Origin: Ramazzottius varieornatus
Lineage: Eukaryota > Animalia > Tardigrada
Direction of reading: 5' to 3'
Assembly: GCA_001949185.1 (NCBI GenBank)
Contig: BDGG01000005.1
Coordinates: 2,643,972 to 2,707,971, forward strand
DNA length: 64,000 bases
Program-made: the position numbers and the translations under genes
In this document: positions 5,334 to 35,589 of the stretch, piece after piece
How positions within the stretch are numbered: the stretch's first letter is position 1
Layout: every line of letters begins with the position of its first letter
The notes under the pieces: model-generated
The model's input: the letters and a program-made list of their open reading frames with translations, nothing else
What the model was told of the DNA's origin: nothing
Databases searched by the model: none

Positions 5334-5435
5334 GGTAAGGAAGCAATGACACGGTTCAGAACGCGCTAATCGAAACTTCGAATTGACCCCGTTAAATTTT
5401 AATCAAGAGGAGCAGTACGGAGTCGGAAGAATCAG

Positions 5436-8400: not shown

Positions 8401-9385
8401 CCAGTATCACGCCGAACACTGCCGCCACCGCATTGACGCTGCTTGTATCTAGGGTGAAACAAAGAAAGAATGATAGGCATGCGAACAACACGGATTTGCA
8501 GAGTCGCTGACCGTCTGAATTTTGTGGACCATACGAAGCAGTGGTTGATTGTTCGCTGTGTTCTTCAGAAAGGTTCTGCTGAGGGGAGCTCCAAGATCCA
8601 ACAAGCAGCCGTTCCAAAGTCAGCGGATCTGACGGCAGTGTGAAATTGTAAAAGTGGCTGGACTTTTCCAACATGTTTCTCAGACATTGCACCAGATTTG
8701 CTGCAGTTTGTCCACCTTGACCCGAACGTGAGCAGCGATCTGCTCGGGTGCTCAACTATGTAAAAAAATATCGGGCGTTTCACTACCGCAACACAAGGCT
8801 TTGTTTTTCCTCGAAATTCTTACCTGTGCCAAAAGCTGCATGCTTCCGAAGAACGCCTCCCCAACCTGCGTTTGTGAAATCGATGATGAGTTACCGATCC
8901 GAAAAGTCGGTAACTGTACAAGTGTTGGAGAGCGTCCACGATCCAGAAGTGAAGGACTCCGTCTAGTCAAAGACATCACCACCACATTCTCTTCTGCAAC
9001 GGATGGTCTGTTCAATCCACATCAACGTCTATGAGGTGCTGCTGGAATTATTGTGTCTTTAAAAAGTCATTTACAGTAATCTTACAGCACCTCTTCCAAT
9101 ATCGACAAGTAGCGAGGCCTCGGTCTCACTGCTACCAGCAGTCATGATAACACGGACGGGAGCCACAGGGGAAGGAATGAGCAGGGGACAGATGCGGTCC
9201 AAAAAGTAAAAGGTTTTCTCCAAAATGAAAGCTTGCATATCCTGTTCGTCCGATACTTCCACATTCCGGATGATGTTTGTAAACGACACTTGGTCAACGG
9301 CAACCCTTCGGACTGCGGTTTCAAACAAGGAATTCAGCTGTGGAGCGTTCTTGCCCAATAGAAACACGAGCAAGCAAATCTTCAT
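5436..9385 (-). CDS. Receptor-type guanylyl cyclase paralogue 2 (short ectodomain, TM, kinase-homology domain, cyclase); multi-exon, plausibly intact
   Basis: TM segment VNAVAAVFGVILGMIIVISFA. Kinase-homology motifs MRDIDHPNVCKFYG, GLKYVHRSKLRCHG, LWMAPE, DTYSFGVILYEM and CWARKPDDRP. Cyclase motifs FSDV, KVETIRDSYMV, PHYTIFGDTVNTASRMATSG and GKGVVETFWL. GT-AG introns join these. Confidence 0.88.
5707..5912. mobile_element. TA-flanked MITE in a cyclase intron
   Basis: CTTTAAACTACCGATCGAGTGGGACAAGATTGGTCCGGG on the left pairs with CCCGGACCCAATTCTGTCCCACTGGATCGGTAGTTTAGAG on the right; TA lies on both sides. Confidence 0.75.
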
Positions 9386-10152
9386 GGTGGTAGAAAAATG
9401 CACAGTTTGACTGATTGACAAGACGTCCTTACTTATGATTAAACTGTATAAAACTAAGGTTAGCTGGCTTCTAAGGGAACAGCCTTTTGCCCATCAAAAG
9501 GATGTACGTGGGGGAAGTCGGCAATCTGATGACGGTGATTACGGAACTATAAACTCGTATCTCTGAGGTAGCGGAAGGACCGACCCAGGGAGTCCTGAAA
9601 TTACGATTTTCCTATAAGCTGTTAGGGATGTCAAAATCTATGCTTACCGAAAACTTCATTCATTCTCTGACGGTATACGTTCTTGATAATAACCCACCGG
9701 CCACATTTAGATGCACACTGAGTACCGGGTGAAGGTTACGATTTACGAATATGCTTCGGACAATGCATTGACGCACGCCCTTGATTAATTACTCCCATCA
9801 AACCATGTTCATGGTGGATAATGAACGCTCCCATCACGCAGATTAATTTTCGACTTTCAGCGATGATTAAAATGTCATATTCTTTGCAACCTAGCGATCA
9901 ATGCGCGCAGTCAGTAGATCAGACAACAAATTAGCTGGGACACAAGATCCGCACACGGACAAAACGGGTGTATGAGGTTAAACGCCAATATTTTTTCCAC
10001 GGGCGAGGACGGCCAAACCGTTTCTAAGAGTCCTTTTCCCTGTAATTATCGAGCATGAAACGTGGCTCCGAATAATACAAGCAGCTGCGATCGAGAACAA
10101 CATACAGCATGACGTCACAGTCAGCGGTTGTGAAATGAAAGAATTTCTTTTA

Positions 10153-10301
10153 TAGAAGGCTCGGCGAAGCTAAGATAAGCCGCTTTAGCCGTTCTTAGTC
10201 GTGGCTTAAAGTATTTTAGCTGCTTTAGCCGCGGCTAAAATATTTTTAGCCACGGCTAAGAACGGTTAAAACAGCTTATTTCAGCTTCGCTGAAACTTCT
10301 A
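10153..10301. mobile_element. Palindromic MITE (foldback) in a cyclase-3 intron
   Basis: TAGAAGGCTCGGCGAAGCTAAGATAAGC... is the near-complement of ...GCTTATTTCAGCTTCGCTGAAACTTCTA. GAATTTCTTT is repeated at 10141-10150 and 10302-10311. Confidence 0.8.
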
Positions 10302-10433
10302 GAATTTCTTTGTACCTTGATGGGAACGAAGCCTCGTGATTCCAGCACATATTTGCCATTTCCTTTCAGCAGATCGTATGTTGCTTTGGAAATCTGTATC
10401 CGAGAAGTTAACACAATGCATAACGGACTCTGT

Positions 10434-10798
<365 letters not shown>

Positions 10799-10892
10799 TT
10801 TTATTCTGTTCGAATGCTAGCCAAGCTTAGCGCTGTATGAAAAAAATTGGAAGAAGTGAGGCAAGAGCGCCAGGAGAAAAAGCGATAACAAC

Positions 10893-11311
10893 TGGAGCAC
10901 GGAATCTGGCCGCATGCGCTGTACTGCACTGCAGAACAGCTGCAGCGCGTGAACTGACGGAATTTGTGCGGCACAGCACAGCATACAGCAGAGAGCCATA
11001 GACTACCGCGCAGATGCACCTACCGAAACCCAACAAAAACTACAGTTTTTGGGCATTCGAACGTCAGCCGTCTCAGCTTTGCCGTACTTTAAGGCAACGT
11101 ACTCCAGGTTGACTACCGATTTCGTTGACTGAATTACAAACCACGTCAATACATCGGCGTTCCATGCAGTTGCACCAGGTCAACGTGCAGCACAGCACAG
11201 CTGCTTAGCCACTGGGCAAGAAAGTTGTGCAGCACAGCGCAGCGTACAGCGCCCTGGTAATGTGCGCAGCACAGTTACAGCGTACTTTTGAACCTGCGGC
11301 CCAGTGCTCTG
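10893..11311. mobile_element. Non-autonomous hAT-type element inserted in the LINE 3' UTR
   Basis: Ends are TGGAGCAC...GTGCTCTG, with an 8-bp target duplication ATAACAAC at 10885-10892 and 11312-11319. Confidence 0.8.
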
Positions 11312-13707
11312 ATAACAACAGCACAAATTCTTTTTCGTTTTCTTTTCTAAAAATAGCAAGATTTAAACTAGCAGCACCGCGTCAATATGATTTTAGCACC
11401 ACTTAAAATTTGAAAAATTCGGAGCGTCAACATAGTGCTTGAAAGTTCCAAAGGCATTCAAATCAACAGCACTAGGGCAGAACAAAGAGTCTTTTAGCAG
11501 GGCTTCGGCGATGTAAGCAAATGAGCCGATGGTGGAATCAAGGAGGGAACGTGAAGAAGCGGCCATCGAAACTGGACTCAACATCAAGGCCACCCTACTT
11601 CTCGGAGGTGCTGATGGTATCGTTTGAAGTCCGGGTCGTGGCTTTGGTCTTCTTTTTCTGCTGGGCTAAGACGAATGCTTCGAAGGAACTTCTTCTGGAT
11701 CGATTCGAGCTGCTTTTGTAGGCTCTTGGTGGTGGTGAATCAGGAGGAGGATGCGTAGTCGGCAATCGATCGAACCAAGGATGTGAAGAGAAGTTGTTTC
11801 ACTGCTCCATAACGCTTAGGAAAGAGTCCATTGATACCGTAAAGTCTCTGCCTGCACTTTGCCGTAACTTTGTCCACCTGTACTGTCCACTCCATCTTGG
11901 TCGAGAGCTTGACGCCCAAACATTCAGCTTCGCTCACCAATGGAATCTTTTCTCTGTTGATCGTATAGCTGCCACTTGGCACCCCCACTTTCTTCATCTT
12001 ATTTGATATGCACAGATGCGGGGAATTTTCAGGATTCAGCTCAAGGCCAGTTTCTTTGCACCAGTCTTCAAGTCTCTGCAGGTCTTGTTGGAGCAAGGTA
12101 CAATCTTCTTTGCTTTTGATATTCCGCCATAGCACAATGTCATCTGCGTACTGCATCACGGTGCACTGCAGTCTTTTTGCCAAGTTGTTCACAGCAATAA
12201 TGAACAGGATCGGGCCAAGAACCGAGCCTTGCGGGACACCAGACGGGACAACGCACTCTGAAGAGAAGTGTCCCTCGACAGTCACTCTCTGACTTCTTCC
12301 GCGCAGGTAGTCGGACACAGATGCTCCAGCAAAACGAACAGCTGCAATGGCGAGATCTTGCCCACAATTTCTGAGAATATCGGAACGGATGTGAAAAAAA
12401 GCGTGACACATTCGCATTGCTCGACGCTGATATTTTCTCCCGAGCGCAACTTGCGCACTACGTCGTGGGGAAGAAGGTCGCGCAACAGCTTATCCACTCG
12501 ACTAGCTTCTGCTCTTAGAGTTTCCGTCTGGAGCGTCAGCTTCCTGTTCGAAATAATTTTGCTCTCAGAACAAACTCCAGCAGACAGACGATTGAGAATT
12601 TATTATTGATCTTCGAGCTCGTTGCTGTAGTGCATCAGTCGATCTCCAGAAGACATTCCTGATCTTTGGGGGTATACGGACTCTAGTGTTTCGAAGATGG
12701 CGTCGAGACTGGGACTTGTAGAATGTCTCTCGATTCCAACACGACATCATGAGATTCGAGAGCTTGGGAGGAACGGTATCAAGCTTTATTTAAAAATGTA
12801 ACCAGAATTAATTATTATCATTATGTGTTATTTTTTTTTAAATTTTAGTTTAGTTTCCGTCCATATATAACTGAAAAAGGGAGCAACCGACCGGTCGTGG
12901 TTGCCTGCTTTATTGATGTTAGATTATTTACTTTATAAAATTTTCTGTTCTTTGTATTTTTGTTTCTTAGTCTTATTTTGTTTATTATTCTTATACAGTG
13001 TCTTGTTTGTTATTAATTTCATTAATTAATATAATATGGAAGTTTAGCTTTGTGTGCGGGGTGCATTATTTAAAAACGTAACAAAGATCGAGACGAGAAA
13101 TGCAACGACACCTCCCAATTTGTAAGGGATTGCTCGTAAAATAGCGTATGCAAAGAAAAATATCATTCAGGTTGGATGACCAGAGGTAACTAAGCGTTTG
13201 CCGGAATAAAATTTTCCGCGTCTGTGAGAGAAAAGGGAAAACCATAATTAATTATTACAAATACAAATATAATCAAAAGTAAGGAAGTTAAATCTTTTAA
13301 AGAAAATAAGGGTGAAAAGTAATTTTGTCTATCCCCAGGCGCAGACCTAAGAGATTACTTGATTTTTGTTCATGAAGAAAAGTTAAATGTGTAATCACTA
13401 ATAGTCTGATAACGAAAGGTAAAACATAATGAAACAAGAAAAATCGAGCAAGAGTCGCGTCATTTACGAAGCAACCACCTCACACCCACTCGACTAACGG
13501 TGTTCCAATATATGGGATTGGTGACAATAGGTTTGTAATTACCGTCGCCCCCCAATAAAACATTTGACCCCAAGGTAGTACATAACCTAGAAAAGCCGTC
13601 ATTATAGATATTAAAAATATAATTACTCCCCTTTCTTTCTCCAGATGGTCCTCGTAAAAATCTGGAATTTCAAAGTCCCATTTGCCAGTTTAGTTCTTTT
13701 TACATAC

Positions 13708-13832: not shown

Positions 13833-15525
13833 ATACCCATCTAAAACAATAAACATGATCTGAAGTCATCAACAAATATTGGTTTTGAGACTGAAAGCCT
13901 CAATCTGGAGATTGGCCGAACTGAACTTTCGGTTTTGTCGGACCTGAAAGTTTAAGGGAAAATCAAAGACTTACGCACGGTTAATGCGCCGCATACGTTA
14001 GTGCGACGGATCGAAAATGCTATTGGTAGTTCAACTGAACGACCAATCAGACTCAGTGGAACGCATGTGAGCCAGCATCGGGCTCAGTTTTTCGACAGGA
14101 TCTGCTGGATCTTCGACTGTTTACCTCGTGGAATTGCTAAATTTCCTCCGAATTTTGATAGTTTTCCAAATAGGAATCCCACCGTTCCAAACGGCCACCC
14201 CTCGGAACGGAATTCCAGGAATGGAATGGAATTTGGAAAGGAAGGAAATTAGGAATTTACAACCTTGTTAGTCACCCTCCGTGCACATCCCGTATTAGAT
14301 GTCTAATACAATCGAAAGCTAATCAAATTCTCTATGTATAAAGCGGAATTTATGATTTTAATTAGTGGTGATTTTTATGAGTATTCATCATAATAGGATC
14401 TTTTTATGGGCGTCTTATACTTAAATGTGATATATATCGTAGCGGTCAGAGGGATAAATGAATAGCATAGTATAAATGTAAACATATTATGATAAAATAG
14501 GTGGGCGAAATCTCTAACAGGTCTGTAAAGCCTGCCCGCTGGCTTAACAAGAACCCTAAAAGGTCGGTCAATGAAGAAGGAATGAACAAGGAATTGCTTC
14601 GTTGTAGACTGGCAGCATTGTTGGCATCGGATCGGACACGCTTTTCCAGCCGGACGGCGCGGTCGTTGTGCACCGTACCCGAGACTTTGGTGTGGCACTA
14701 CGACTGAGTAGGCGAATGGGAGCCGAAAACATGGAACGGCGGGCAACGCAACGAGAGGCACTATATGCGGTAGCCCGTGACGCTCTTCGTTGCGTGAGTG
14801 ATTTGGAGTCCAGTTTGCTGTATATGAATGATAATGTTATGATGGGCTGTGGATGAGTTTTCTTGTTTTCTCCAGGTACCCATGTATTCTGGTTCCCTTG
14901 ATTTTCCATCGTGGGAGTTCTTTCCGGCGTATTGTCGGGTGCTTGGTGCGTTCCCCTTGACGGAAGTGTATCTGTAGAGCGAATTTTAGCGTCGGAAGAC
15001 AGAAAAACGGTAAAGGATCAGAACAAAAAACATCTTATTTCTTACAGCGGCGTACATACACAACTGTAGTACACGGACAAAGGGCAGCAGTAGAGGAAGA
15101 AACTACCGCAAAGGAGGAAAAAACTGCTGAAGGACAGGTACAGAGCACAGAATAAAATAAGCCTATGAAACTAAAATATTTAGGAAAATAAAAACTGAAA
15201 CACAAGAAAATACAGGGTGCGATACAGGGTGCGATCCAGGCCAAATACTTTCTTTTGGGTCTTCGGCAACCTTTTCCCGGAAAAATTTCCTCGGACATAT
15301 TTATTTTTCGAACATTTTCATTTGCAACATCCCGTAATCAATCTTTTCTTGTTACGTTCTTTCCGACATTTTTTCGAACTGTTCATTTTCTTTTCACCGT
15401 AATTTTTTTTAAATAAGAACAGACACAACAAATTACAACTGTGATACAATACAATACACGTTACAATAGCGTAAGCTGATTTGAGCGCACACTCACCACT
15501 CTCCCTTGGTGGGTGGCGCGTCGGG

Positions 15526-16055
15526 CTAGTAGTCCGACTCTCGCGTCGCCTCTGCGATGTTGACATCAGTCTCCTCTTTAGAGAAGCCGTACTGGGAAAG
15601 GTCTCCCAGCCGGTCTTGGTCAAACATGATGAAATATTGGATGCACTTCAACTGGAGGATTGATCCTTTAATGATTGGGGTGTCCTGGCAGCAGTCAGCA
15701 TACCCTGTCTTGACTAGCTGCACGGTAACTCGACGTGAATTCATCCTTGTAGCTAAAGGAGATGGCGAATGAAACAGGTGTTGTTCCTCGTAGTTGTACA
15801 AAGGATTAGAAGCGTTGAATGGAAGGCTTCGAGGCTGAACAGGAGGTACTTCTCTAGTGATGCGTTTTTGAGGGGCATCCAGAGACTGAGCAAGTTTTCT
15901 CCAAGCTAGGAGAGTTGCGATGGTCTTACGGTTTTGCGGGTCGCGCAGGAACTGGCTAACCTGGGACGTTCCCAGGGTGGGGTCACTTGTGTGGTGGCAG
16001 TTGGCATGCCTGCCAGAACTATGCCGACAGCCAAGAGGAACAGGGATGAATGCAT
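15526..16055 (-). pseudogene. Accessory ORF B of the Gypsy element: signal-peptide protein of unknown function, one frameshift
   Basis: MHSSLFLLAVGIVLAGMPTATTQ, then a frame change into QVSQFLRDPQNRK...GYADCCQD...EATRESDY. It ends just before the putative PPT. Confidence 0.55.
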
Positions 16056-16496
16056 GTCGGTAGTGTGATATGATATGCCCAGTTGGTGAGATATAAAGAA
16101 GACTGCGCGATAAGAGGTTATAATCCGATGAGTCAGGAGAACTGCAGAATGAGAAAGGACGACTGCGGTATAAGTAGAGAAAACAAAGGTTCCTTGATGC
16201 TGCGGTAAGCAAAATAATGGATTTGCAGACGATGTAGAACGTGAGGTACATCGAAGTGATTTCAACCAAAAGCTGCGTCGGTCGGCACAAACGGGAAGGG
16301 CAATCAGGTAATAAGTCTGAAGTGTGTTGTTGTTTTTTAGTTTTGAGTGTTGACGACGTCGTGCTCGTCAAAAAGAAACATGTGATGCTGGGTATAAGTG
16401 ACTATCAGGTCGTAGTCGGTAAGGGAAAGATAAATGATAGATGATTGACTGCCGGTTGGTCGGTTAGAGATGTAAACCGGCCATTGGACAGGTAGC

Positions 16497-17186
16497 TCAG
16501 AGCAACTGAAGGAGCTCCTCAGGCATGTCGAATGCCGTGAAGAACTCAGCGCTTAGGTCGTGCCATTCAGGCATCATCGTCTCTCGTGGTTGAATGATGA
16601 GACAGGGTAGGAGGTACGTGTTGATGGTCATAGCTTTGACTAGCTGTTGGCCTCGACGAAGTATGTGCGCCGGTCGCGCGTACTGAAGTAAATGATGGTA
16701 ACGCTCGGTGTAGTTGATATTAGGGTCTAGATCAAGGTGGCCTCTATACTGTCTGAAGGTAGTGGAGCTGAAATCAAATTGATCCAGCGCTTCAGGAAGC
16801 CGTGCCAACATGAGGATAGGCCGCTTCAGGATAGACCACGTTGGTGACTGTACCGTCACAGAAGTAGTTGATAATGCTTGGATTGGTACGGAACAGCTGG
16901 GCTTGACCCTGCGTGTGGAAGATCGGAGCGTAGATGTCATACAGTGCCGTCATCCACGTGTTAGTGATGGCGATATCTTGGTGGTGAGTGTGCAGTACTG
17001 ACGGTACATCGGTATCTGCAACAGCGACATTTCGGAAATGGGTGGTTTCACGAAAGACTGAGTCGGTCGGAAACTAGCGCACGCGTCGGTAGGATAGAGG
17101 AAAAGGGAAACCATTAGGAGGGTGAATAGTAGTTGTCGGGTGGGATGCCGGGGTTGGTTGATCGTCCGGCAGTCGTTGATTGTCAT
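16497..17186 (-). pseudogene. Accessory ORF A of the Gypsy element: hydrophobic leader, unknown function, frameshifted
   Basis: MTIND...RQLLFTLLMVSLFLYPTDACAS. An alternative-frame middle (HQDIAITNTWMTALYDIYAPIFH...) joins EALDQFDFSS...MPEELLQLL. Confidence 0.5.
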
Positions 17187-17189
17187 TTG

Positions 17190-20110
17190 TTTAGCGTTTT
17201 GACAACCTCGGTAACCTCTTCGTTTAATTCATTGATTTGCTTCCTTGCTGGCTTCATCGGCGCAACATTCGGTGGCGCTGTCGATGGTAGCCCGTAGGAG
17301 TTGTTGTTGGTGGTAACTGGTGGTGGCCTGGTGAGGTTTCCTGAGGCATTGTCGTTCAGGGAGACCTGATCGTAATCGAAGTCAACTTGACTAGTGCGTG
17401 TGTCGAATCGTACCTTCGGAGACTTGCGTCGTGAGAATATTTTCCATGACTTGGAACGAGTTGTCAGCAGTGGCGCGGTGGATCTTGCTGTGGATCCGGG
17501 CGTGGAGTCGTTGTAGATGGAGTTAGACTCGGTAGGATGGTGCTGTTTTGGTTTCTTCTTAGGGCAGCGGCACGTCAGACAGCTGCGCAGAGTTTTCCAG
17601 CCACAGCATTTGACTATGATTAGGCCTACGATGACAATCGGAGCGAATACGAAGAGAACTATCTAGACATTTCTGAGAGAAGACACGAATCTCTCGATTG
17701 CCCCTTCGCCGATTACTGCAACGGTGTTTGTCTGTTCGCTGTCCTGTCGCTGAACGTGTCAATCAGGGAAGGGATTCCGGAATTTTCCATGATTGCTGAT
17801 AGCTCGCCGAGAAGGTCAAAGTAGCTGCGATCAGATGGCTCGTGCCAATTGGCCAACGACTGCATTGCAGTCGAGTCAGCCTCCATCTTGAACATGGCTG
17901 CCAAGTGATCATGGCTAATGGATATTGTTTGTTTGGCCTTCTGCCAGTCATGAGCATTTTCTTTGCATTCCATTATTTGATCGCCAACTGTCGTAAAGAG
18001 GCCACCGTGTAGGCAGGGAACGAAGGGATTGATCAGAGTGTAGCCACCAAGACTTAGAGAGGAGTTGAGGACGAACGGTTCCATTCCACACTTGGTCTTC
18101 TTAGCACTGATATCTGTGGTTACTTTCTGACACTGGTACAAAAGGGCTTGTGACGTCCCGTATGCCGTGATAGAATGGCAATCGTTTAGACCAATGAGTT
18201 TTGCGGCACGGACCCCTGACTGCTTCGCCATCATGGACAGGACGGCTGCTTTGTTGAAGCGGGATTGACAGTCCAAGTTGTGGACTTCATTATTCACAAC
18301 GTTGGAAATCTGGACTTGGTTACCGCGTAGGTACTGTAGGTGTGATATCAGGAACTCTTGGCGAAGATCACCAGAGGCTGCATACGGGAATACTTCCTCC
18401 ACGTCGGTATCGCTTGACTGGCGTAGTCGGTTCAGAAAGCCGACCTTGCTTTGTGCTCGCAATCCGGATTTTGACTGCTGCTGAGCTGGCTGAATAAACG
18501 GTGGCTGAATCTGTGGTAACACCAAGGGTAGAGCTACGGGTGGCTCAGGTTTACTTGGTGGGATGAATATAGGCTCGTGTTGCGGTGGTAGTACTTGCAT
18601 CTGCTTTGGTGCTTGCATGTAACGTGGGCCGTCGTAGAAGCTTTGATGATTGCGAGCGGCTTTGCTGATTCTATAACCGTCAGGATCATACTGTCTTCGG
18701 ACATCCGCCCGGAACTGGTTTTCAGTCTCGAGGTTGTCCTGCTCTTTTTGCAGCTGCTCCTGAAGGAGCCTTTCATCTTCCGTTCGAGTCCATTCCCCTT
18801 GCAGTCGGTGCTGCTCTAACCGGTCTTCGTACTCGGTTAGTTGTTCAGGAGTCAGGTGTTGCATGTTCGGAGGCTGAGGTGTCGTCTCTTGGTGTTGAGC
18901 GGGTCTTGACTCTATTCGCTCATTTGGTAGCGTTTGCGACAATGTCTGTGGTGGCGGTCGTTGTGGCAGGTTGACAGGGACCGGCACTGGTTGCGAAGTA
19001 CTGGTAATGTTGATTGGTCGTTGGTTTATGACTTGCTCCGTCGTTACGTTGATAATCGGTGGCATGACCATTTCAGGCATGACTCTTTTGGGTTCGGAAA
19101 TGTTGGTGGGGGTGCCTCTTCGCTGTTCTCCCAAGTCTACGTAGTTCGTACGGAGACTTGGGTCCAACCCATCTTGGACGGGAGGTTGGTTTTGCGCGAG
19201 GCTGTTGGGATTGACGTCTATATCGACTTGCGACCAGATCTAGGACGTCATCGTGCTCTTCTGATGTGTAGGTGAAGTTGCGGAGGACGTCGGAGAATCC
19301 TTTGACGACGTGACGCATGTCGACGAGCGTAGTACAGTTAGTTTACTGAGCTTGTTCAAATAGGATAAATTCAACTTACTTAGTAGGGTCCCGTAGACGA
19401 AGACGGGTCTTTTCGAGTTTGTACATAGTACCAGAACCGTTGGCGACAAGCTGGTACTCGCATTGTTTCTTCTTGGGCGATTGGTCAATCGCGTTCCATA
19501 TCACGGTCATGTGATTCTTGCTCGCATAACCTTTGTTGCGGTCGGCACCGAGCTCACCGAAAAACGAGATGATGAGTTCTTTCGGACCGCTCTGAGTGAG
19601 GACTGTATGTAGGTCAACAAGACAGTTCCAAACAGAGTTCTTCGTAGTGGCCATCCAGGAGTATTCACGGGAAGGCGGCCTGGTAAAGGCGTACGTCTCG
19701 GAATTCGGTAAGCGAACCATAGGGTTCCCGTTGCAGGAAAGCGTTTGAGCCATTCGCTTACAGTCTGCATCAGAGAGATCGACTGGGCCGGACGAAGGTA
19801 TCGTATCTGTGGCACCCCAGAAGGATTTGTAGGTTTCAATCTGTTGCAGCGTAGCTTTGCAGGTTGTTCCGATAAAGTACTGAGCGTCCTTTTTCATGGC
19901 GTAGATGGACGCCCAGCACTTTATCGGAACAACCTGCTTAGGCTCTGGCGCCAGCTTTTCACATGTAGTATAGGTGGCTGAATCCAGAAGGCCCAAAAAG
20001 TGTTGATTTTTGCAATTGCAGATGTCTGCCTGAATAGTAAAGGCCGTAGGCAGCATAATGAAACACAGTACGAATGTGAGCCAAGCAGGGAGGTGGTGCA
20101 TGGCATTCAT
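17190..20110 (-). pseudogene. env-like viral fusion glycoprotein (class III-like), with in-frame stops and frameshifts
   Basis: Signal peptide LPAWLTFVLCFIMLPTAFT; GTTC...YKSFWG...DLSDADCKRM...FTRPPSREYSWMAT...WNC; furin site RYRR (19214-19225); HLQY...NEVHNLDC...GVRAAKLIGLNDC...YQC; TM IVLFVFAPIVIVGLIIV (17612-17662) followed by KCCG...SCLTCRC. Confidence 0.8.
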
Positions 20111-20401
20111 CTGGCGTGGTGGTTTTGTACGGGTTGATCGGCGAACCCTTGCAGCCGACTGGGTTTGGTCCTGGAGGTCTTCGAGGCCCTCGTCGGACTT
20201 TAACATGTTGTCAGCGCTAAGGCCCGATAACATTCGGTTTCCTCGTTGTTTCTAGCTCTTTAGTACCTTGACCGCCTTGACCAAAGACGTTGTTTGCGGA
20301 TGAGTTCTCTGTCCGGATTGGCTTGGGCTGCCCTCCCGCTCAGATTTAGGAGGGTTTGCCGAGTTAGAAACGCTGCGGTATTTGCGTAGGATGGGAGGGT
20401 C

Positions 20402-23400
20402 TTAAATTGTTTCCAACCTAGGTCGAGGAGTTGCTTCCCGAGTGGTGGCTGCTTGCGGTGTCACCGGGCGAGGATCGGGAATCCTGAGAGGAGGCGGCAT
20501 GGCCTTCGATGCGATGTTCGACCTTCTTGGTGGAGTACGAACCCGTGGGTTGTCCAAGCTGGACTTCGGAAGTGTCTCGTCGGTTGTGGACTTGCTAGAG
20601 CGAGCAATCGTGATAGGTAGTTGCAACGTGTTGGGTCGGGTTGTAGGGTTTGTACGAGTAGGAGGTGGTTCGACTGTCGTTCCAGCAGACGTTATATAGT
20701 CGTCCTCTTCGGCGTCGTCGTCGTGTTGCTCGTTGAGTTTTGCAGTTGTAGCATTCCGCGATACTTGTGTAGCTAGTATTAGACGGTCATTCGCTGGAAC
20801 TGCTTCGTCATCAGAACTCTCAATGACTCTGAATTCTCTAGGGTGAAGTTCGTCGAAATCAGGTTCTTCGAGGTCCTCGTCGCTGCCGTTGCTTCTAACA
20901 TAACGTTTCAAACGAGCTATGCTAACAACGGTGCCCGTGTTTGAACCCGGTCGGTTGTAACTAATGCGGAAGTTGTTAGGACCAGTTTGTTGCAAGATGT
21001 CGTAGGGACCACCCCAATAGTGATGGAATTTGGATCCTACTCCTCTTGACCGCGCGGGCCTGAAGAGTAAAACTTGATCGTTTACTTTGAACGGAGTTCC
21101 CTTACGCTTGGGATTGTTATATGCAAAGTTGTATCGGCGTGACTCTTCCAGGTTAAACTGTGCGTAGGCTCGAATGTCTTCGAGATGCTGGTGTGTGTCA
21201 GCGAGGAAAGGTTCAGCGTAGTCGATCGGAAATGTGGAATCGGAACCGAAAAGACACTCAACCCCATACATAACTTTGTAGGGTGACACTTTGGTTGTTT
21301 CGATAGCTGACGCAATCATGGCGAAAACAGCGTAAGGAACGTGATTCGTCCAGTCCGACTGGGACTCGGCGCAAAGCTTGGTGAGCTGGGAACCCAGCGT
21401 GCGGTGTCGACGCTCAACCACTCCTGTGGTCGTAGGTTTCCACGCCGTGTTCTTCAGATGCTTCATGGCAAGCATTTTGAGCAGATGTTGTGTGATCTGA
21501 CCAGTAAACTCCACTCCCAAGTCCGACGGTACTACACTAAAAAACCCGTAGCGAAGAGCTACTTCCAGGAGGAACTTAGCGAAAGTGAGTGCCGTGTGGC
21601 TGGATGTTGTTTTGGCAACTAGGAAGCCGCTGAACTCGTCGATGCAAGGCAGGATGTAGGTGTTACCGTTAGATGACCTTGTGATGGGTCCGACGGTGTC
21701 GCATACCACCGAGTGCCAGACTCGAGGTACCACATGAATGTGTTGCATGAGTCCGTATTTCTCTGATCGACCAGGATTACGGGTCTGGCATGTGTGGCAA
21801 CTACCTACATATTGACGGATGTTGCGAGCCATGCCTTTCCAATAGAAGCGCTTATGGATAACTTCAAGGCACTTTTTGAAACCCAAATGGGCCAACCCGG
21901 TACGGTGGTCATGGACGGTCTCACAGACTTGTGTCCATAGTGTTTTCGGAAGGACTAGGTGCTGAATCCTATATCCCCATTGGTCGTTGGAAACGTGGTA
22001 GAGGATCCCGTTGTCGATGGTGAACATCTGGGCGAGACGTTGGACTCGTTCTGTTGTGTCCTGTGACTCTGTCGATGAGAATTCAATAATCGGTTTACAG
22101 AAGGGGTCCGTCAACTGTTCAGACGCAATATCCAGTGTTTGTAAGTCGAGCTGAGCGGACAGGTATAGAAGCGGGAACTCAGCAGGTTCGGTGCTATCCG
22201 GCGGAACGTCACCGATGGCATTGAGGCTGAAAGCTTCAGCATCTTTGTGCTTCGAACCCGAGCGATGGATATAAATAAACTGAAATTCGGACAACCGGAT
22301 GGACCAACGCTGGAGCTTCGCGTTTTGCGTTTTGAGGTTATTAATGGAGGTTAGGGAGATGTGGTCGGTGTAGACTACAACTCGTCTCCCAAGAATGTAC
22401 TTGCGCCACCGATCCGCGCAGTACAAGATGCCCAAGGCTTCACGTTCCGTAGTTGAAAGGTTTTGCTCAGGGCGGGAGAACTTGCGAGAGCAATACGCAA
22501 CCGGGTGAAAGTACTTGTCTGTACTTTTAAATTTCTGTAGAAGAACTCCTCCACAGCTGGAGTTACTCGCATCTACGTGCATGGAGTGCTCTGCTGCTCT
22601 CTCGTCGAAAAACGAGAGAAGAGGAGAAGAACACATCTTTCTCTTCAACTCTGTGAAGGCAGCATCCGCTTCTGGACTCTAGATTAGCTTTTGTGTCTTT
22701 GTGACGTTGGAACCTGCATACATTTGCGTAAGCGGATTAGCGATGCGGGCGAATCCATCGATGAACATTCTGTAGAATGAGAAGAGGCCGAGAAAGGAAC
22801 GGAGTTCGGTTACCGTAACTGGTTTAGGGTAGTCTCTGACAGCCTTTGGTTTGGCAGAGTCTTGGGAAATTCCCGCTTCATTGACGATGAAGCCGAGAAT
22901 CTTTGCCGATGGCATGGCAAACCGTGACTTCTTCACGTTGACTGTAAAGTTTGCTTCCCGTAGACGCTGGAACACACGGCGCAGCTTGGCTAGGTGTTCA
23001 TCGAAAGTTGTGGAGTTAATTGCCAAGTCATCGACGTAGATTGACACGTCGCGGTTCAGCATGTCGCCGGAGAGAGTGTTCATGGTTTGTTGAAAGATGG
23101 AACTAGCGAGGTTTACTCCAAACGGTAATACTTTATACCGAAATTTTCCAGCTTCTGTGATTACGCTAAGCTTGTCGCGCGAATCTTCGTGTACTAGGAT
23201 TTGGTTATATCCTTGTACAAGGTGAATGGTTGTAAAATAGCGGCCTCCACCCATGGAATCAAGGATATCCGATATGAGTAGCATACAGTATTTAGGCTCA
23301 ACTACTACCGTATTAAGACGCCGGTAGTCACCGCACATTCTCCAACTGGGGGGATCGGTGTTCTTTGGGACCAGGACTACTGGGGAGGCCCAAGGACTGC

Positions 23401-24230
23401 GACTAGGTTCGATGAGCCCTTGGTCGATAAGCTTCTTTATTTCTGCGCTGATTATCTCCCGCTCTTTCTGTGGCATCCGGCGCGCAGGCTGCCATATTGG
23501 CTTGGCATTCGCCGTATCGATACGAAGTGGCTCGACGTTAGCTACGCCAATAGGGTGCTCTGCTGAGGGAAAGAGGTCCATGTGTTCTCTCAAGAGCGCT
23601 TTTATGGCGAAAAACTGGTTTGGTTCAAGATGCTTCCCGAAGACCAGGTCTGGATCGACGGCATCTGTCCTCTGGTCAGGATCGTTTTCCACGAGATTTC
23701 CTGCTATGCAGTGTGTCAGCAGGCTGGCTACCTCTGCCGAAGGTCGTTTGTCCCACTTTTCATGCAAAGTGGCGTGATCATTCATCTGGTCACTGTCTTC
23801 CGTGGCGTAGAAGCAGTATGGCTTATCGCATGCGAATATTGTGTCACGTATATATTGTATCATCGTGCAAGACCAAAGATGTGTTTTCCACTGGTCTCGG
23901 TTGACGAACTACTGCTTACAGCCACACTCGAAATTAGGACCAAGGTGTTGTGCTGAAGCTTGTGGGCAGGAGAAGACATGAATGCGGTAGGCAAGCCATG
24001 AAGCATTTGGTGTCCCGCATGCACAGGTGAACAGATCTTTGGTTGACTCCAAGGTAAGAAGAGCCCTGTTTAGCCCAAAGCGAAGGATAGGGTTATCCTT
24101 GAAGAGGGCTAGTTGATCCATGTGATGCTTCGTGACGTTAATAGGAGGATATGTTGGACTCCTGATACACGATACAAACGTAGCGTTGTCCTTCTCGACT
24201 GTCTGTTGATTGGGTAACTGATCAGCGGTT
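20402..24230 (-). pseudogene. Gypsy pol: zinc-finger module, reverse transcriptase, RNase H and integrase (single frame, two premature TAG)
   Basis: RT: PWASPVVLV, CGDYRRLN, LPFG, YVDD. RNase H: VDAS, EREALG, YTDH. Integrase: HDH...HLG...CHTC, CDTVGP, SDLGVEF, VERRHRTL, GPY. The ORFs 23909-24358, 22679-23863 and 20402-22648 share one frame. Confidence 0.93.
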
Positions 24231-25063
24231 CCACCAGGAATCCGCTGAGTCACGGAAGCGTAAGGACGCATGTTCCACAATGTCCCTCGCTGGAATACGT
24301 TGAAGCTTGCAAGCCGTCTCAAACTTCTTGATGAACATACCGATTTCTTCGTCGTCATGGCCGTGGAACAACGGCATTGGAATGTTGATTTTTGTGGCAG
24401 CTATAGCCTCGATGAGGGTATCGGCATCGAGCTTGACTTTCTTCGGTATTTCGTTGCCGTTGTCATCTTCGTCGTCCTGCTGTTCGGTCTTAACTTCATC
24501 GACAGCGTCTGTTTTGGGCAAATTAACGAACAGACCTTTCGCTTCGTCGTTTCGTTTACCTCTTTCTCCCCCTTTTTCTTCATCGTGTCGTTCGATGTCC
24601 TCACTGTTGGCGTTCTTGGCCATTTTATATTATTGTTGTGCGGCTCTGGTTGCTTGAACGTGCTGGTGGTGGTGATGGTCTACCAGATCAGCGTTGATCG
24701 GAGAAATTGGTTGGTCCACGTCGGAGGCAGGTGAATTGATATGTCCTCCTAGTCGGCGGAAGGTGGACGCAACAATTGGCATTGCGTACTCAGTTGCCAA
24801 GCTGTCGGTGGTAGCGGAAGAAGTAGTCGAAGTTGACGACTGTAACGTGTTATAGGCAAGGGTGGTAGTGGCCTCGTTGAGTCGTGATGATCAGATAGAG
24901 TAGGAACTTCGGTATCCGTGTTAGTAACGTGCTTAGTTTTGACGACGGTTACTTCGAAACGTTGTTCTGTTTTCTGTGGTGACGTAGGGACTGACGAAGC
25001 GGTACGAGCTGTACCCTTTTCGGACGATGCTAGTATTGATTCAGATTTCCTTGGCGGAATTAC
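24222..25063 (-). pseudogene. Gypsy gag, N-terminal part only (capsid start); the rest of gag and the protease are missing
   Basis: PLFHGHDDEEIGMFIKKFETAC...ASLRFRDSADSWWN is a typical retrotransposon gag capsid N-terminus. The sequence then jumps into the pol frame, and no D(T/S)G protease motif was seen. Confidence 0.7.
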
Positions 25064-25832
25064 CATCAAAAACGGTAAGATGGTAATGAAGTGCAAGGCA
25101 GATTTGCAAACTGACAACCAGTCGTCGGCCAATCCAACCAGTATGCTACTGTGTTAATTGTAAGATACGAATATCTTGATGAAAATTTTGTTACTCGCAG
25201 GTCAGCTTATTATACGATAGAAAGGTCAGTTTGACGAAAGTAACACGGTAACGTATCAGCGTAGAATGCGCAAAGTAAGATACTGCTAATAGGAAAGTGA
25301 GACACTGCTAGCAGGACAATAAAGATATTGCTATTGTATGCGATTTCGCAAGGCGACGTGAGACGTGCGCGCGAAACCAAATTACCACGGTGGGTTACAG
25401 GAAGCAACGTATGGCCACGTTACAGACGTGCTCACGTTTTTGGTTACGACTATGGTTAGTTTCACGGTAGGCGACGATAAACGTGCACTCGTGTTCGGTT
25501 ACAGCTACCACCAGCTACAGCACAAGGCGACGTTAGACGTGCGCGTGCTTCTCTTTTTAGACCGTGAGTTACAGACAATTTTTTTTTGGGCAAGTTGCTG
25601 CCGGAACAGTGCAAAAAAGCTCGGAAGTAATCAATTTCGAAAGAAAATCGTAATGCTAGGTCTCAAGAGAAGGAAAGGAAAAAAGGAGTCCCGACTGTTA
25701 CTGAACAGTCGGTTTATATACTTTCACAGCGAAGCAGAAGGAAAGAGAAAGTTCTAAAAGTACGTGAAGTGTCCGTGCTGATTCAGCACGAGTGCTTTAT
25801 TACCGAGGTAAGCTCTTTACAGGTCTTTGGTT

Positions 25833-25910
25833 TAGAGAACGGAATCGGGCCGCATGCGCTGCACTGTACTGCAGCTGTGCTGTGCTGCAGCACAGCTGCC
25901 GCGTGGCTGT
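25833..25910 (+). mobile_element. Left end of a hAT-type element related to 10893-11311, cut by the DIRS insertion
   Basis: TAGAGAACGGAATCGGGCCGCATGCGCTGCACTGTACTGCAG versus TGGAGCACGGAATCTGGCCGCATGCGCTGTACTGCACTGCAG at 10893. Confidence 0.65.
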
Positions 25911-26146
25911 GCCGGAAAGAGAGTCAACGCCGAAAGGTGTTACACTGCCGTTAACGCCATTTCGGCATTTCCCTCATTACAGAATAGTAATTTGATTAGG
26001 TTGCCATGTGGATCCTGAGTAGCTTACAGTCTAAATTTATAGCTGGAGTCAGTCACTGTTTCACGAAGTGAGCACATCAGCTTTTTTCTCAGCTTTTTTA
26101 CGTCTCCTCGACGGCAAACTCGCGACCTCAGAGCCTACACGGGGCT

Positions 26147-28163
26147 ATGCCTCCGGTAGCCAGCGATAGCCCTAGTGGACGACACCGTTACGGTACCAAA
26201 TACCCAGCGCTCGGCGTTGAAAGACGTTCGTCGCGCGGTCAGTGTGGATCGGGCCTTGGAGCTGTTCGCAGAACCCGGACGAGAAGACCGACAGGGAAGC
26301 CCAAGCCGCTTGGAGAATGGATTCAGAAGACTGGAAAGTGGATCTGGAAGACTGGAAAGACAGGGAACTGGTCCGGAATTACTTCGCGTGTCGGATAGAT
26401 CAGGAAGACAGGAAAGAAGAATGGAATACGAAGGGAGCGCGTATGTTGGTGGCCAAGTTGGACCTGGTGGACACGACGTCTTGATGGGTCAAATGGGACA
26501 TTCTTCCGGTGGACGATTACAAGGCGAACAAGCAGGCCGAAATGGAAGGGATCCGTGGTTGCCTACCGACGCCACCTACCCGACACCAGAAGAGATTGCC
26601 GCCACCCTTCGTCATGTCAAGCAGCTGGAAGCTAGAAACGAGTCCCTCCATCGTCAGGTACGCTCCTCCCCAACGTACTCAGTCTCCCGGGCCCCTTCGC
26701 CTCTACCGCAGTACGGCAATCAAATACCTTCCTCACCTACCCCAGTTGTCTACAGTGTCGTTTCAAAAAAGCCACCTCCTTCTACTCATTTCAACTTCCC
26801 CCCAGTCACTCCTACTGTTGACAAGCTGCTTCGACAAAAATCAGCCTACGTGGGTTTTCCAGGATCTGGTTACTGATAGATATGTGCCTGATAACACCAA
26901 GCGCAAACAACCCGGTGACCATAGTACAGGACACTTGGTGATCGTTGACTTGCCCTCCTGGCAAGATGCGTTTTTGACTTTCTCTCTCTATCGGAGCTAC
27001 TATTACCCCGATATGGCTATACCTTTCCTTGTCTATAGTAGCATTATCCGGGGGTTGGCTTCACGAAAGCCTGACGTGCGCTTTTGGTTGGAATATGACC
27101 AACGTTCCCGTCAAAAGATGGCATTGCCGGATTCTGATGTAACCGGGTGGTACCACGAGAACCGTGATATCGTTAAGGCCGTTAAAAATAATTTCAAGCC
27201 AACTGCTACTACTACCACAGTTATCGGCACCGTTGCTCGAGGTCCATACTCTGAGTGGATTCGCACCGCTACCTGCCATATATGCAGCGAGAAGGGCCAT
27301 ATCGCAAAAACATGCCCCAGCAAGAAAGAAGGTGTGAATAGATCTTCTAATAGAATTTTTAACATAGTTAAGTTAAGGAAATTCAAGATTTGTTCACGGT
27401 ATACAAAGCTAGAGTGAAAGCTACTAAACGGGATATTCTTAGCATTTGCGGACAATTGGGCTTCGCAACCAAATGTATCCCGGCTGGCAGAATCTTCCTC
27501 CGAAGGATGCTCAATCTTGCACATAAGGTTAAACAACTCGACCATCCTAAACTGAAACTGAACGATGGCTTCAGAGCAGATCTGCAGTGGTGGATAGATT
27601 TTCTTCCGACATGGAATGGCTCGTGCAAGTTTCTTCGGACAAAATGGGTGGCGACTCCAAGTATGCATCTATTCACCGAAGCATCAGGTAGCATCGGTTG
27701 CGGTGGTGTTTACGGCGTAGAATGATGGCCAAGCTGGCTACTTGAAGCCACCCATCCATTGCTTTGTTGGAACCGTTGCCAGTTTTGATCTCGTGTTGTG
27801 TTTGGGGGTCAAACTGGCAGACAAAGCGAATCTTATTTCATTCCGACAATATGTCGGTGGTCCAGATCTGGGCAAAATGTACGTCATCAAATGTCGCCAT
27901 CATGACGGTGATACGCCGCATCTATTTTGAAGCGGCAAACAACAATTTCACGCTAAGAATAACGCACATAAGCGGTGTCGATAATACATTGGCTGATGCT
28001 GTGTCTAGATTCGACAACGCGCGGTTCTTCGAAAACCATCCCAAGGCCAATACCGAGCCCATAATGGTAGACAAACATCCTCGATTTTTTGCGGGAGATC
28101 ATGCTAGAACGCGGAAACTGTTCGAACTCGATGCAAGATCGCAAGAGCTCGTCGGTAAGCGAT
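26147..28163 (+). mobile_element. DIRS-order (Ngaro-like) retroelement: gag with CCHC knuckle, RT C-terminus/RNase H, start of tyrosine recombinase; RT core deleted
   Basis: gag: WQDAFLTF...FWLEYDQRSRQKMA...CHICSEKGHIAKTCP. RT/RNase H: LSICGQLGFATKCIPAGRIFLRRM, DLQWWIDFLPTWNG, LFTEASG, FHSDNMSVV, HISGVDNTLADAVSR. Confidence 0.88.
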
Positions 28164-28225
28164 NNNNNNNNNNNNNNNNNNNNNNNNNNNNNNNNNNNNN
28201 NNNNNNNNNNNNNNNNNNNNNNNNN
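28164..28225. other. Assembly gap (62 N)
   Basis: Run of N. Confidence 1.
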
Positions 28226-28840
28226 ATATCATCTTTCCGAACTTGCTCGCTTCTTCCACAGACATCTTTCTGCAACAATATTCGAGTTTCTCATTGCAGC
28301 ACTGTGTTAATCCGAGCTCCTGGGTGTTCAAAGGTGTTTGCTTACCTGGCTTTCTGTTGGATTTCAGAAGGTAGTACCGTTCTTCGTTTGGTAACGATTT
28401 TTCCACCAGCTGCCCGATATTTCTTTCCGACATTTTCGGATACCTCCTCATCTTCGCTCTTTCCGGACATTCCGCTTAAGTTACCTTCCATCGTAGCTCC
28501 AGTTTCACCAGCTACGGCGATAAATAGCGAGGCAGAAGAATAAGCCGTGAACAAAAAAAAGAAGTAAAACGTCGTGGTTTCTAATATGAACAACTGGGAA
28601 GATTATTCACATATTTCCGTTCGGTTACAGTCGGCACACGAAGTTGTTTCAGACGTGGCCTGCACGAAATGCAAGGCTACCAGTCAGCAGTTCTGTCGTC
28701 CTGCCCGAAAGAGCTGTGATTGGCACAGTGGCGACGCCGAAGATTCGCACGTCGAATCCAGAGAATTCCGTCTTTTTAGCAAATGTACTGCTGTGCGGCA
28801 GTCAGCTTGGTCTCGCTGCATGCTGTGCAGCGCTGCGCCC
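28226..28840 (-). mobile_element. Subterminal region and start of a putative transposase ORF of the same hAT-type family
   Basis: The reverse complement of 28650-28840 shares blocks (GCACAGCATRCAGC, GACTRCCGCRCAG, CCACGTC) with 10968-11150. A minus ORF EGNLSGMSGK...KMSVEEASKFGKMI follows. Confidence 0.45.
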
Positions 28841-28997
28841 TCTTGACGCCTGGACCTTCTTTAACTACGAAACGAACACGGAAGTACTTGGGGTCAATGA
28901 AGGTAAACTGTCAAGGTAGGCGGATATACACAATTGCGTAAACCATTTGCCCAGCCTTCGCACAGTCCCCACAGACCCCAAGCGAAGGCTGATTAAA

Positions 28998-29790
28998 CTA
29001 ACCTGAGATTCGCAGCATAGTTTGGGTCAAGGAGACCATATCTGGTCGGACGTATCGGTTTGAAACGTCGCTGCTCCATCTACCCATGGCCCTAATCTGT
29101 TCCATGGAGCATCCGGCTTTAGAAGCCGTCGAAGCCGCTCCTATCCGGAAACTATGAGAGGTAAAGCCATCCCCGAGAAAAATTTGTAGCTCGCGATTGA
29201 CACGTTGGCGAGTCAGGTAGCATCCATCATGGGAAATGAATAATGGTGTATGTCTTGCTGAAGATCTGACCAGCATATAAGCGTGAAGGGCTTGTACGGG
29301 ACAAGTATCCGTTTGAGTTTTTGTTAGATAAACTGCAGGAGGTGTGGTTTTGCGATGGGTTTTATCTCGCCGCAAACATATTTGGACCGAATCGCAGGAT
29401 ATTTGTAAGTCATTCAGGACAAGGTTTGATTTGTCAAAACTTGTCTCCTTCGAACTGGTATACTCGGACACACGTAACATGCCGTAGAAGGCCATGGTAA
29501 AAGCCGACCAAAGCATCAGTTGGTCGTGTCGAGGAAAGAGAGATCCGAATAGGTCAGCTTTGAGCTGTCGTAAATGTTCTATTGTCAGAGGCTTTCTCTT
29601 ATATGTGTCGGGACGGGTTTGATTGGTTAGACCTTTCAACATCATTGAGAGGTAATAGTCATTTCTACCAGGAACAGAGTATCCGGACGGATTTCTTGAG
29701 GGTAGAAGCCATCTATTTTCGAGGATCTGTCTGGTGTGGCGAACTTTGGAAGGCAATCGAGCTAGCCGGAGCTCCACCATCCTGTAAGTA
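28998..29790 (-). CDS. Tyrosine recombinase of a DIRS/Ngaro element (N-terminus damaged)
   Basis: Catalytic set GMLRVSE, DKT, CPVQAL, SHSFRIGAAS, GRWSS and RYVR. Confidence 0.92.
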
Positions 29791-29864
29791 ACTTCAATCA
29801 ACCGCACCAGCTGTTGATTTGTGGCATTACTGCCTGTGGCTGTCATTCTTTCTCTTCCTACAGA

Positions 29865-35584: not shown

Positions 35585-35589
35585 TTGCC

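What the first reader, a model, noticed from the sequence alone, without database searches (positions are those of the whole stretch)
17190..20110. Gypsy element carrying an env that resembles a class III (negative-strand RNA virus-like) fusion glycoprotein
Seen: downstream of integrase, reading across three stops and about two frameshifts, is a type I membrane glycoprotein with signal peptide, Cys-rich ectodomain, RYRR furin site, TM (IVLFVFAPIVIVGLIIV) and a Cys-rich cytoplasmic start (KCCG..SCLTCRC). Known: insect errantiviruses use a baculovirus F-derived env, and nematode and mosquito Bel/Pao elements captured phlebovirus-, herpes gB- or chuvirus-like glycoproteins. Inference: the pattern G-x2-C...SFWG...C-x2-M...F-x2-PP-x3-Y-x-W recalls the bipartite fusion loops of rhabdovirus-type G, and the later helix-Cys-...QC block recalls nyami/chuvirus glycoproteins. 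This may be a poorly described lineage of enveloped, potentially infectious Ty3/Gypsy retroviruses from an independent env capture.
Basis: partly seen in the sequence, partly recalled or inferred. Interest (0 to 1): 0.9.

Follow-up and report, generated by a model that had tools for sequence, protein, structure and literature searches.

The report
Tardigrade retrotransposon with viral fusion gene
This is a broken copy of a tardigrade jumping gene whose envelope gene is predicted to fold like the cell-entry proteins of rabies and herpes viruses; such elements were described in 2026, but this one also carries two extra, likely secreted genes of no known family.

Summary
Observation confirmed. 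The minus strand holds a Ty3/Gypsy element (RT-RNaseH-integrase) followed by a broken env: leader, Cys-rich ectodomain, RYRR, TM, three stops, two frame changes. The class III reading holds. The N piece hits Pfam rhabdovirus fusion domain (E 0.001, below cut-off); a family profile ranks rabies G first in PDB; a model of an unbroken natural relative matches herpes gB end to end (Z 11) and rhabdovirus G in the fusion domain (Z 9, 3.3-3.7 A), and chu-, nyami- and rhabdo-like G rank above gB among viral models. Host: a tardigrade, most likely Ramazzottius. But the kind is published: Chary and Hayashi (eLife 2026) list 'HSV/gB-type' env Gypsy elements in many phyla, five in tardigrades; Hduj_errantivirus_6 is a close relative. 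Not found in that paper's text: two leader-bearing ORFs after env, one conserved in a distant relative (29%, E 3e-12); env in one frame with integrase in relatives; and a variable slot inside env that holds a 270-aa low-complexity stretch here and ricin-type lectin domains in 21 of 60 scanned homologues. This copy cannot make Env. New member of a known kind.

The parts
24225..24629 (-). gag, broken piece
   Evidence: 34.8% over 69 aa to the gag of relative L001, E 1e-7; the L001 gag hits Retrotrans_gag weakly
22682..23908 (-). reverse transcriptase (YVDD at 23038-23027), ends at a stop
   Evidence: Pfam RVT_1 E 1e-24; 47.6% to L001
20402..22678 (-). RNase H, H2C2 zinc finger, integrase core and C-terminal domain, low-complexity tail
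   Evidence: Pfam RT_RNaseH 1e-28, Integrase_H2C2 2e-17, rve 6e-6
20114..20143 (-). RRSTRTKPPR motif in the env frame just ahead of the env leader; resembles the basic motif at the end of Gypsy integrases (recalled), hinting that env once ran on from pol
   Evidence: the piece aligns in the pol-env frame of L001 from this point
20036..20110 (-). env start and predicted signal peptide
   Evidence: hydropathy 2.1; sequence; no signal-peptide predictor was run
19250..20035 (-). env fusion domain (loops SFWG 19825, YSW 19663) and PH-like domain; stops at 19378 and 19345
   Evidence: PF00974 E 0.0011, 20.1 bits, cut-off 22; profile-to-rabies G E 0.0011; model of relative vs Mokola and VSV G, Z 9.4 and 9.0
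19214..19225 (-). RYRR, predicted furin site, followed by polar residues
   Evidence: RFKR in L001, RYKR in Hduj_errantivirus_6
18370..19200 (-). about 270-aa Cys-free P/Q/E/R-rich insert in the domain II-III linker; frame change near its start
   Evidence: composition; like stretches in L001, P0003, P0005, P0007; in the L001 model it is low-confidence except one 86-residue helix
17716..18360 (-). env central helix and crown (gB domains III-V equivalent); frame change near its end
   Evidence: 49% to P0003; model helix 570-616 then beta domain, aligned with gB
17183..17662 (-). env TM (17662-17612), Cys-rich start of tail, cytoplasmic tail; stop at 17665 just ahead
   Evidence: hydropathy 3.2; profile positions 488-552
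16497..17186 (-). ORF-X: extra ORF right after env, hydrophobic leader 17132-17088, broken over three frames, no known family
   Evidence: follows env also in two Ramazzottius gene models P0002 and P0004; no Pfam hit; Atlas no usable hit
15526..16055 (-). ORF-Y: second extra ORF, hydrophobic leader 16055-16005, frame change near 15960, no known family
   Evidence: 29.5% over 139 aa to the second extra ORF of L001, E 3e-12; z 23, 0 of 300 shuffles; no DNA-level match there

Best explanation
A decayed copy of a tardigrade Ty3/Gypsy retroelement whose env is predicted to be a class III (gB/rhabdovirus-G-like) membrane-fusion protein that would, in unbroken relatives, let particles pass between cells. 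Shown: gene order gag-RT-RH-IN-env-ORF-X-ORF-Y, the breaks, kinship to published tardigrade 'HSV/gB-type' errantiviruses, env in one frame with integrase in relative L001. Predicted from a model of that relative: gB-like five-part layout with a rhabdovirus-like two-loop fusion domain. Inferred: env is made either as the end of a long polyprotein and freed by signal peptidase at the internal leader, or from a shorter RNA; it trimerises, is cut by furin in the domain II-III linker as herpes gB often is (own knowledge), and its FWG and YSW loops enter the target membrane, likely at endosomal pH; the likely use is soma-to-germline spread as in Drosophila gypsy. The linker is an exchangeable slot, likely for attachment or shielding. 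ORF-X and ORF-Y are likely secreted helper proteins of the element (my odds: host modulation 0.4, entry or attachment partner 0.25, other 0.35). This copy makes none of these proteins whole.
For: Pfam pol domains in Gypsy order. PF00974 on the window's own piece. 344 homologues at E<=0.001. Of 60 of the 150 listed that I scanned: Monjiviricetes_fusion in 5 (1 above cut-off), Rhabdo_glycop_FD in 5 (none above cut-off), herpes gB families in 0. Family profile vs PDB: rabies G first, E 0.0011; pseudorabies gB E 0.11. Model of L001 ectodomain (core pLDDT over 90, pTM 0.52): Foldseek PDB top rows all gB, E 5e-11; VIA Z 11.2, 410 aligned, rmsd 14 A to HSV gB, Z 9.4, 122 aligned, rmsd 3.7 A to Mokola G; all 5 of 48,161 chains with Z>=8 are class III fusogens; BFVD top rows rhabdo-related, chu-related, Nyavirus, xinmovirus G, best herpes gB rank 12. 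Window N piece 38% over 227 aa (E 4e-50) to Hypsibius exemplaris BV898_19789, which by eye is nearly the row Hduj_errantivirus_6 of PMC13524379 supplement 2; by eye 44 of 95 ungapped positions identical between window and that row. Named near homologues are all tardigrade.
Against: The fold was modelled on a relative (39-43% identical to the window pieces), not on the window's protein; the window piece alone gave pLDDT 34. Whole-chain TM-scores are low (0.13-0.30) and rmsd to gB is 14 A, which I put down to the insert and hinge motion but did not test by folding single domains. The Pfam hit is below cut-off and the L001 pieces hit no fusogen family. No LTR pair or primer site was found in the window. 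No fusion or infection data were found for any gB-type Gypsy env; the paper itself calls the entry mechanism unknown. Signal peptides rest on hydropathy only; the first extra ORF of L001 did not pass my hydropathy bar.
Confidence: 0.88

Rival explanations
1. A separate, later capture of a negative-strand RNA virus glycoprotein (rhabdo-, nyami- or chu-like) by this Gypsy lineage, unrelated in origin to the other gB-type envs.
For: By sequence and by predicted fold the nearest viral proteins are negative-strand RNA virus G, not herpes gB. By eye the fusion domain shares G-x2-C, ETY-x2-F-x-G and YSW with the rabies G row of the paper's supplement, far more than with the mosquito BEL rows. PMC13524379 built no global tree of class III proteins.
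Against: Identity to any viral G is 8-17% in structure alignments; 344 homologues diverged to about 20-30% point to great age; like Cys layouts (C2) occur in water fleas, nematodes, bryozoans, rotifers. Direction of transfer cannot be told; the viruses could have taken the gene from retroelements.
Confidence: 0.3
2. A viral glycoprotein fossil (non-retroviral endogenous element) that landed by chance next to an env-less Gypsy.
For: Such glycoprotein fossils near Gypsy fragments are reported in insects (PMC10084718, abstract). In this copy pol and env are in different frames.
Against: Relative L001 has RH-IN-env in one unbroken frame, with matching pol (43-48%) and env (39-40%); Paramacrobiotus gene model P0191 joins RT, RH, IN and both env halves; published tardigrade elements carry the same env.
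Confidence: 0.02
3. ORF-X and ORF-Y are host sequence or neutral filler beside or inside the element, not element genes.
For: ORF-X has no significant match outside Ramazzottius; no known family; only one distant lineage tested.
Against: ORF-Y is conserved as protein, without DNA likeness, at the same place after env in L001; both L001 extra ORFs have clusters of 21 and 23 members, mostly full length among those listed; ORF-X follows env in two other gene models.
Confidence: 0.12

Closest known systems
HSV/gB-type errantiviruses of tardigrades, group Tardigrada_C2 / C2c, above all Hduj_errantivirus_6 (Chary and Hayashi, eLife 2026, PMC13524379)
   Same: Ty3/Gypsy pol, gag-pol-env order, leader plus TM, same five Cys of domains I-II (by eye), FWG and SW loops, furin site followed by a long low-complexity stretch (seen in the Hduj_6 row), tardigrade host.
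   Different: This copy is broken and is not among the five listed elements; Ramazzottius had one candidate region and no curated element there. The text does not mention extra ORFs after env, the insert or lectin domains (the supplement notes 'extra domain' for two water-flea envs). Whether Hduj_6 has ORF-X/Y could not be checked.
Rhabdovirus G (rabies, Mokola, VSV) and Monjiviricetes G (chu-, nyami-, xinmovirus)
   Same: Two-loop fusion domain superposes at 3.3-3.8 A over about 122 residues; best sequence-profile hit in PDB; best predicted-structure hits in BFVD.
   Different: The match to rhabdovirus G stops after domains I-II; the env is longer, has a furin site and a large insert, and sits in a retroelement.
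Herpesvirus gB
   Same: End-to-end layout: fusion domain, PH-like domain, cleavable linker, long central helix, crown (Z 11, about 400 residues aligned).
   Different: 10-13% identity, smaller domains, no Pfam gB hit; gB needs gH/gL, for which no counterpart is known here.
Mosquito Bel/Pao elements with chuvirus-like G (Dezordi 2020, PMC7642597, search listing only; sequences seen in PMC13524379 supplement)
   Same: LTR element with a class III env.
   Different: Pol here is Gypsy-type; Cys layout differs by eye.
Bdelloid rotifer LTR elements with extra ORF3 genes (PMC5408684, abstract only)
   Same: Extra ORFs in invertebrate LTR elements.
   Different: Those are env, GDSL lipase or DEDDy exonuclease; here two unknown leader-bearing ORFs come in addition to env.

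Membership tests
Ty3/Gypsy (Metaviridae) | pol order RT - RNase H - integrase with Gypsy-type domains | tested here: met
   (RVT_1, RT_RNaseH, Integrase_H2C2, rve, weak Integrase_p58_C); relative L001 adds Retrotrans_gag, aspartyl protease, SH3_Tf2-1
Ty3/Gypsy (Metaviridae) | flanking LTRs, primer binding site | tested here: inconclusive
   no LTR pair in the window; contigs of other copies join 14583 to 25650, which may mark LTR remnants; L001 shows TG...CA followed by a TGG primer-site-like motif, by eye
Ty3/Gypsy (Metaviridae) | RT phylogeny | not tested
   no reference RT set on hand
HSV/gB-type errantivirus (PMC13524379) | env after pol, ectodomain between leader and TM | tested here: met
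HSV/gB-type errantivirus (PMC13524379) | gB-like class III fold, domains I-V | tested here: met
   on relative L001 (39-43% identical):
HSV/gB-type errantivirus (PMC13524379) | hydrophobic fusion loops in domain I | tested here: met
   SFWG and YSW; F, G, W conserved in the 112-row alignment
HSV/gB-type errantivirus (PMC13524379) | C2c cysteine-bridge layout of tardigrades | tested here: inconclusive
   same Cys positions as the five tardigrade rows by eye; the figure that defines C2c is not held
HSV/gB-type errantivirus (PMC13524379) | trimer, fusion activity | not testable with these tools
   monomer model only; no assay
Catalogue of intact elements in PMC13524379 (an inclusion rule, not a lineage trait) | unbroken gag, pol and env | tested here: not met
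   stops and frame changes in all three genes
F-type (baculovirus F / gypsy) env | furin site followed by a hydrophobic fusion peptide; Baculo_F match | tested here: not met
   RYRR is followed by QSQQPRAK; no Baculo_F hit on window pieces; 2 of 60 homologues hit it weakly, at the TM end only
Bel/Pao with class III env | Bel/Pao-type gag-pol markers | tested here: not met
   no Pao-type Pfam family at E<=1 in window pol or at E<=5 in L001; marker names recalled

The most novel reading that the evidence does not exclude
Tardigrades host 'complex' enveloped Gypsy retroviruses: one long gag-pol-env frame, a class III env nearer to negative-strand RNA virus G than to herpes gB, with a swappable attachment slot (low-complexity stalk here, ricin-type lectins in a sister clade), plus a new family of secreted accessory proteins that act as the missing trigger or receptor-binding partner of the gB-like fusogen.
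Probability: 0.2. Interest if true: 0.75.

Novelty: new member of a known kind. Interest (0 to 1): 0.4.

Why it matters
The kind is published, so this dead copy adds a host species and little more. Three side results bear on open points of that paper. (1) It says cell entry by gB-type env is unknown because herpes gB needs partner proteins; here a variable slot in env, holding lectin domains in many homologues, and two extra leader-bearing ORFs are candidate attachment or helper parts. (2) It left the origin of gB-type env open; profile and fold searches point to rhabdo-, chu- and nyami-like G as the nearest viral kin, so 'HSV/gB-type' may be a misleading label. (3) Conserved accessory genes after env would make these invertebrate elements resemble complex retroviruses.

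Tried and rejected
No whole genome is held, so copies of this pol without env could not be counted. Single-sequence fold of the window's N piece: pLDDT 34, not used. phmmer of that piece and 2-5-row profiles vs PDB: nothing meaningful. Word-based search with the N piece among longer proteins: 0 of 948 candidates. Viral contigs: no relative in two scans. LTR search by repeat finder, blastn and Smith-Waterman: best score 30, below 10 of 10 shuffles. ORF-X as paralogue of ORF-Y or of the first L001 extra ORF: weak at best (ORF-Y profile on ORF-X piece 3.9 bits, 1 of 200 shuffles as high; reverse tests null); left open. Expression: no RNA holder listed; contigs of runs only guessed to be RNA cover parts of ORF-X, ORF-Y and the env start, which shows nothing on expression. 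gp41 and spike rows are TM-proximal composition matches, rejected. The top BFVD row has TM 0.13 and rmsd 45 A and is not relied on. GP64 and other class III families low or absent in the VIA lists are not excluded by that. Env tree is a quick tree without bootstrap; 86 rows, hits with under 150 aligned residues left out. No earlier scan findings. No complex prediction was run. Literature: 9 answered searches found no paper on extra ORFs or lectin inserts in gB-type Gypsy env; subscription journals, figures and the authors' GitHub files were not seen.

Full report
Observation. The env runs from 20110 to 17183 with stops at 19378, 19345 and 17665 and frame changes at about 19240-19050 and 17764-17716. 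Upstream lie a broken gag (24629-24225), RT (23908-22682) and RNase H-integrase (22678-20402) in Ty3/Gypsy order. No LTR pair is detectable. All work on the window's env used its separate open pieces.

One gene, many relatives. Both large pieces map in order on one natural metagenome protein, P0003. A metagenome scan gave four loci (4 of 102 pattern matches; L001-L003 are near-identical, L004 92%) of a related element with pol 43-48% and env 39-40% identical to the window. In L001 RNase H, integrase and env lie in one unbroken frame, and gag, protease and RT in one frame; the stretch between the two is not held. A full HMMER search with the L001 ectodomain found 344 proteins at E<=0.001. Of the 30 proteins looked up, those with an animal name are Ramazzottius, Hypsibius or Paramacrobiotus; one member of one cluster bears a bacterial MAG name, likely misbinned; most have no name. 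Two Ramazzottius varieornatus gene models are 87-89% identical to the window's env, so the host is most likely that species or a close one. Contigs of one public run show at least three variants of the env tail region (identical, and two with different deletions): a small, decayed family.

What the env is. The window's own N piece hits the rhabdovirus fusion-domain model (E 0.0011, 20.1 bits, cut-off 22). Among 60 of the 150 listed homologues (chosen for length and score), 5 hit Monjiviricetes_fusion (best E 5e-8), 5 Rhabdo_glycop_FD, none a herpes gB family. A 112-row profile ranks rabies G first in PDB (E 0.0011, profile 67-206) and pseudorabies gB at E 0.11. The AlphaFold model of the L001 ectodomain has core pLDDT over 90. 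It aligns end to end with herpes gB (Z 11.2, 410 residues, rmsd 14 A) and tightly, in the fusion domain, with Mokola and VSV G (Z 9.4 and 9.0, 122 residues, 3.7 and 3.3 A). All 5 chains of 48,161 with Z>=8 are class III fusogens. Among predicted viral structures, chu-related (E 4e-13), Nyavirus (1e-12) and xinmovirus G (3e-12) precede the first herpes gB (rank 12); 5 of the top 50 rows are named gB. TM-scores over the whole chain are low (0.13-0.30).

It is known. Chary and Hayashi (PMC13524379; seen: abstract, sections 5 part 1, 6, 8, 9 part 1, 14, passages, and parts of four supplement tables; no figures) report 1,512 intact env-bearing Ty3/Gypsy elements with F-type or 'HSV/gB-type' env, five of the latter in Hypsibius and Paramacrobiotus. 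Their row Hduj_errantivirus_6 shares by eye 44 of 95 ungapped positions with the window, the furin site and the start of a long low-complexity stretch; within their tardigrade group the seven pairwise identities I saw were 17-42%. The Hypsibius protein P0008, near-identical by eye to that row, is 38% identical to the window piece over 227 aa. Ramazzottius was screened, with one candidate region and no curated element. Fused POL-ENV frames appear in their labels for two other elements, so the fusion is not new either.

What is not in that text. (a) A variable slot. In 65 of 152 stored proteins with both env halves, the gap between them runs from about 16 to 630 residues. In the window, L001, P0003, P0005 and P0007 it is a nearly Cys-free stretch of about 230-340 residues with an E/R/Q/K-rich core, modelled as disorder plus one long helix; these fall in one 14-row group (SH-aLRT 94, quick tree). 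In 21 of 60 scanned homologues the slot region holds ricin-type lectin domains (10 above cut-off); the 20 of these in the tree all fall in another group (99). Their hosts are unnamed. The paper notes only 'extra domain' for two water-flea envs. (b) Two extra ORFs after env. ORF-X (17186-16497) and ORF-Y (16055-15526) start with hydrophobic leaders and are broken here. L001 also has two ORFs between env and an LTR-like stretch; its second is homologous to ORF-Y (29.5% over 139 aa, E 3e-12; 0 of 300 shuffles) with no DNA-level match, which points to selection on the protein. ORF-X follows env in two other Ramazzottius gene models but has no significant match to L001. Neither has a known family.

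How it likely works. Shown: anatomy, kinship, breaks. Predicted: class III fold. Inferred from class III fusogens and Drosophila gypsy (own knowledge): in unbroken members env enters the ER by its leader, made from the long frame or a shorter RNA; a furin cut in the domain II-III linker leaves the halves together; the slot serves attachment or shielding; the two loops drive fusion; particles from soma reach the germ line. ORF-X and ORF-Y would be secreted helpers. None of this is tested, and this copy is inactive as a source of whole proteins.

Verdict. A real feature, well read by the first stage, but a decayed new member of a kind published in 2026. The extra ORFs, the lectin-bearing slot and the closeness to negative-strand RNA virus G are worthwhile leads. 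Interest 0.4.

Noticed in passing
window 26100-29950: A likely DIRS-type (tyrosine recombinase) retroelement abuts the 5' end of the Gypsy element: zf-CCHC at 26485-27414 (+), RNase H-like piece at 27746-28540 (+, by recalled motifs), Phage_integrase hit at 29001-29921 (-). It may have cut the 5' LTR.
   Followed up: partly
homologues P0014, P0019, P0040, P0041, P0045, P0050, P0055, P0064, P0087, P0093 and others: Class III env homologues with one or two ricin-type beta-trefoil lectin domains inside the ectodomain; one clade; hosts unnamed; not found in print in two searches.
   Followed up: partly
L001 8190-12590: The gag-pol frame of the relative seems to hold more than one aspartyl-protease-like repeat between gag and RT (by eye; Pfam scores one at 884-971).
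   Followed up: no
L001 7806-8096: Two 145-bp direct repeats (90%) in the leader ahead of gag.
   Followed up: no
window 1700-12800: Tandem receptor guanylyl cyclase-like genes or pieces on the minus strand (Guanylate_cyc at 6347-7042; repeats), one interrupted by a LINE RT piece at 11740-12489 and a long AAT repeat at about 10430-10800.
   Followed up: no
window 30333-32867: LINE element (endonuclease-like piece and RVT_1).
   Followed up: no
window 33885-35588: 147-bp terminal inverted repeats, 95% alike, 1.4 kb apart: likely a non-autonomous DNA transposon.
   Followed up: no
window 14050-14270 and 25833-25900: High-copy short repeats at both outer ends of the element (many loose ends in laid contigs).
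   Followed up: no
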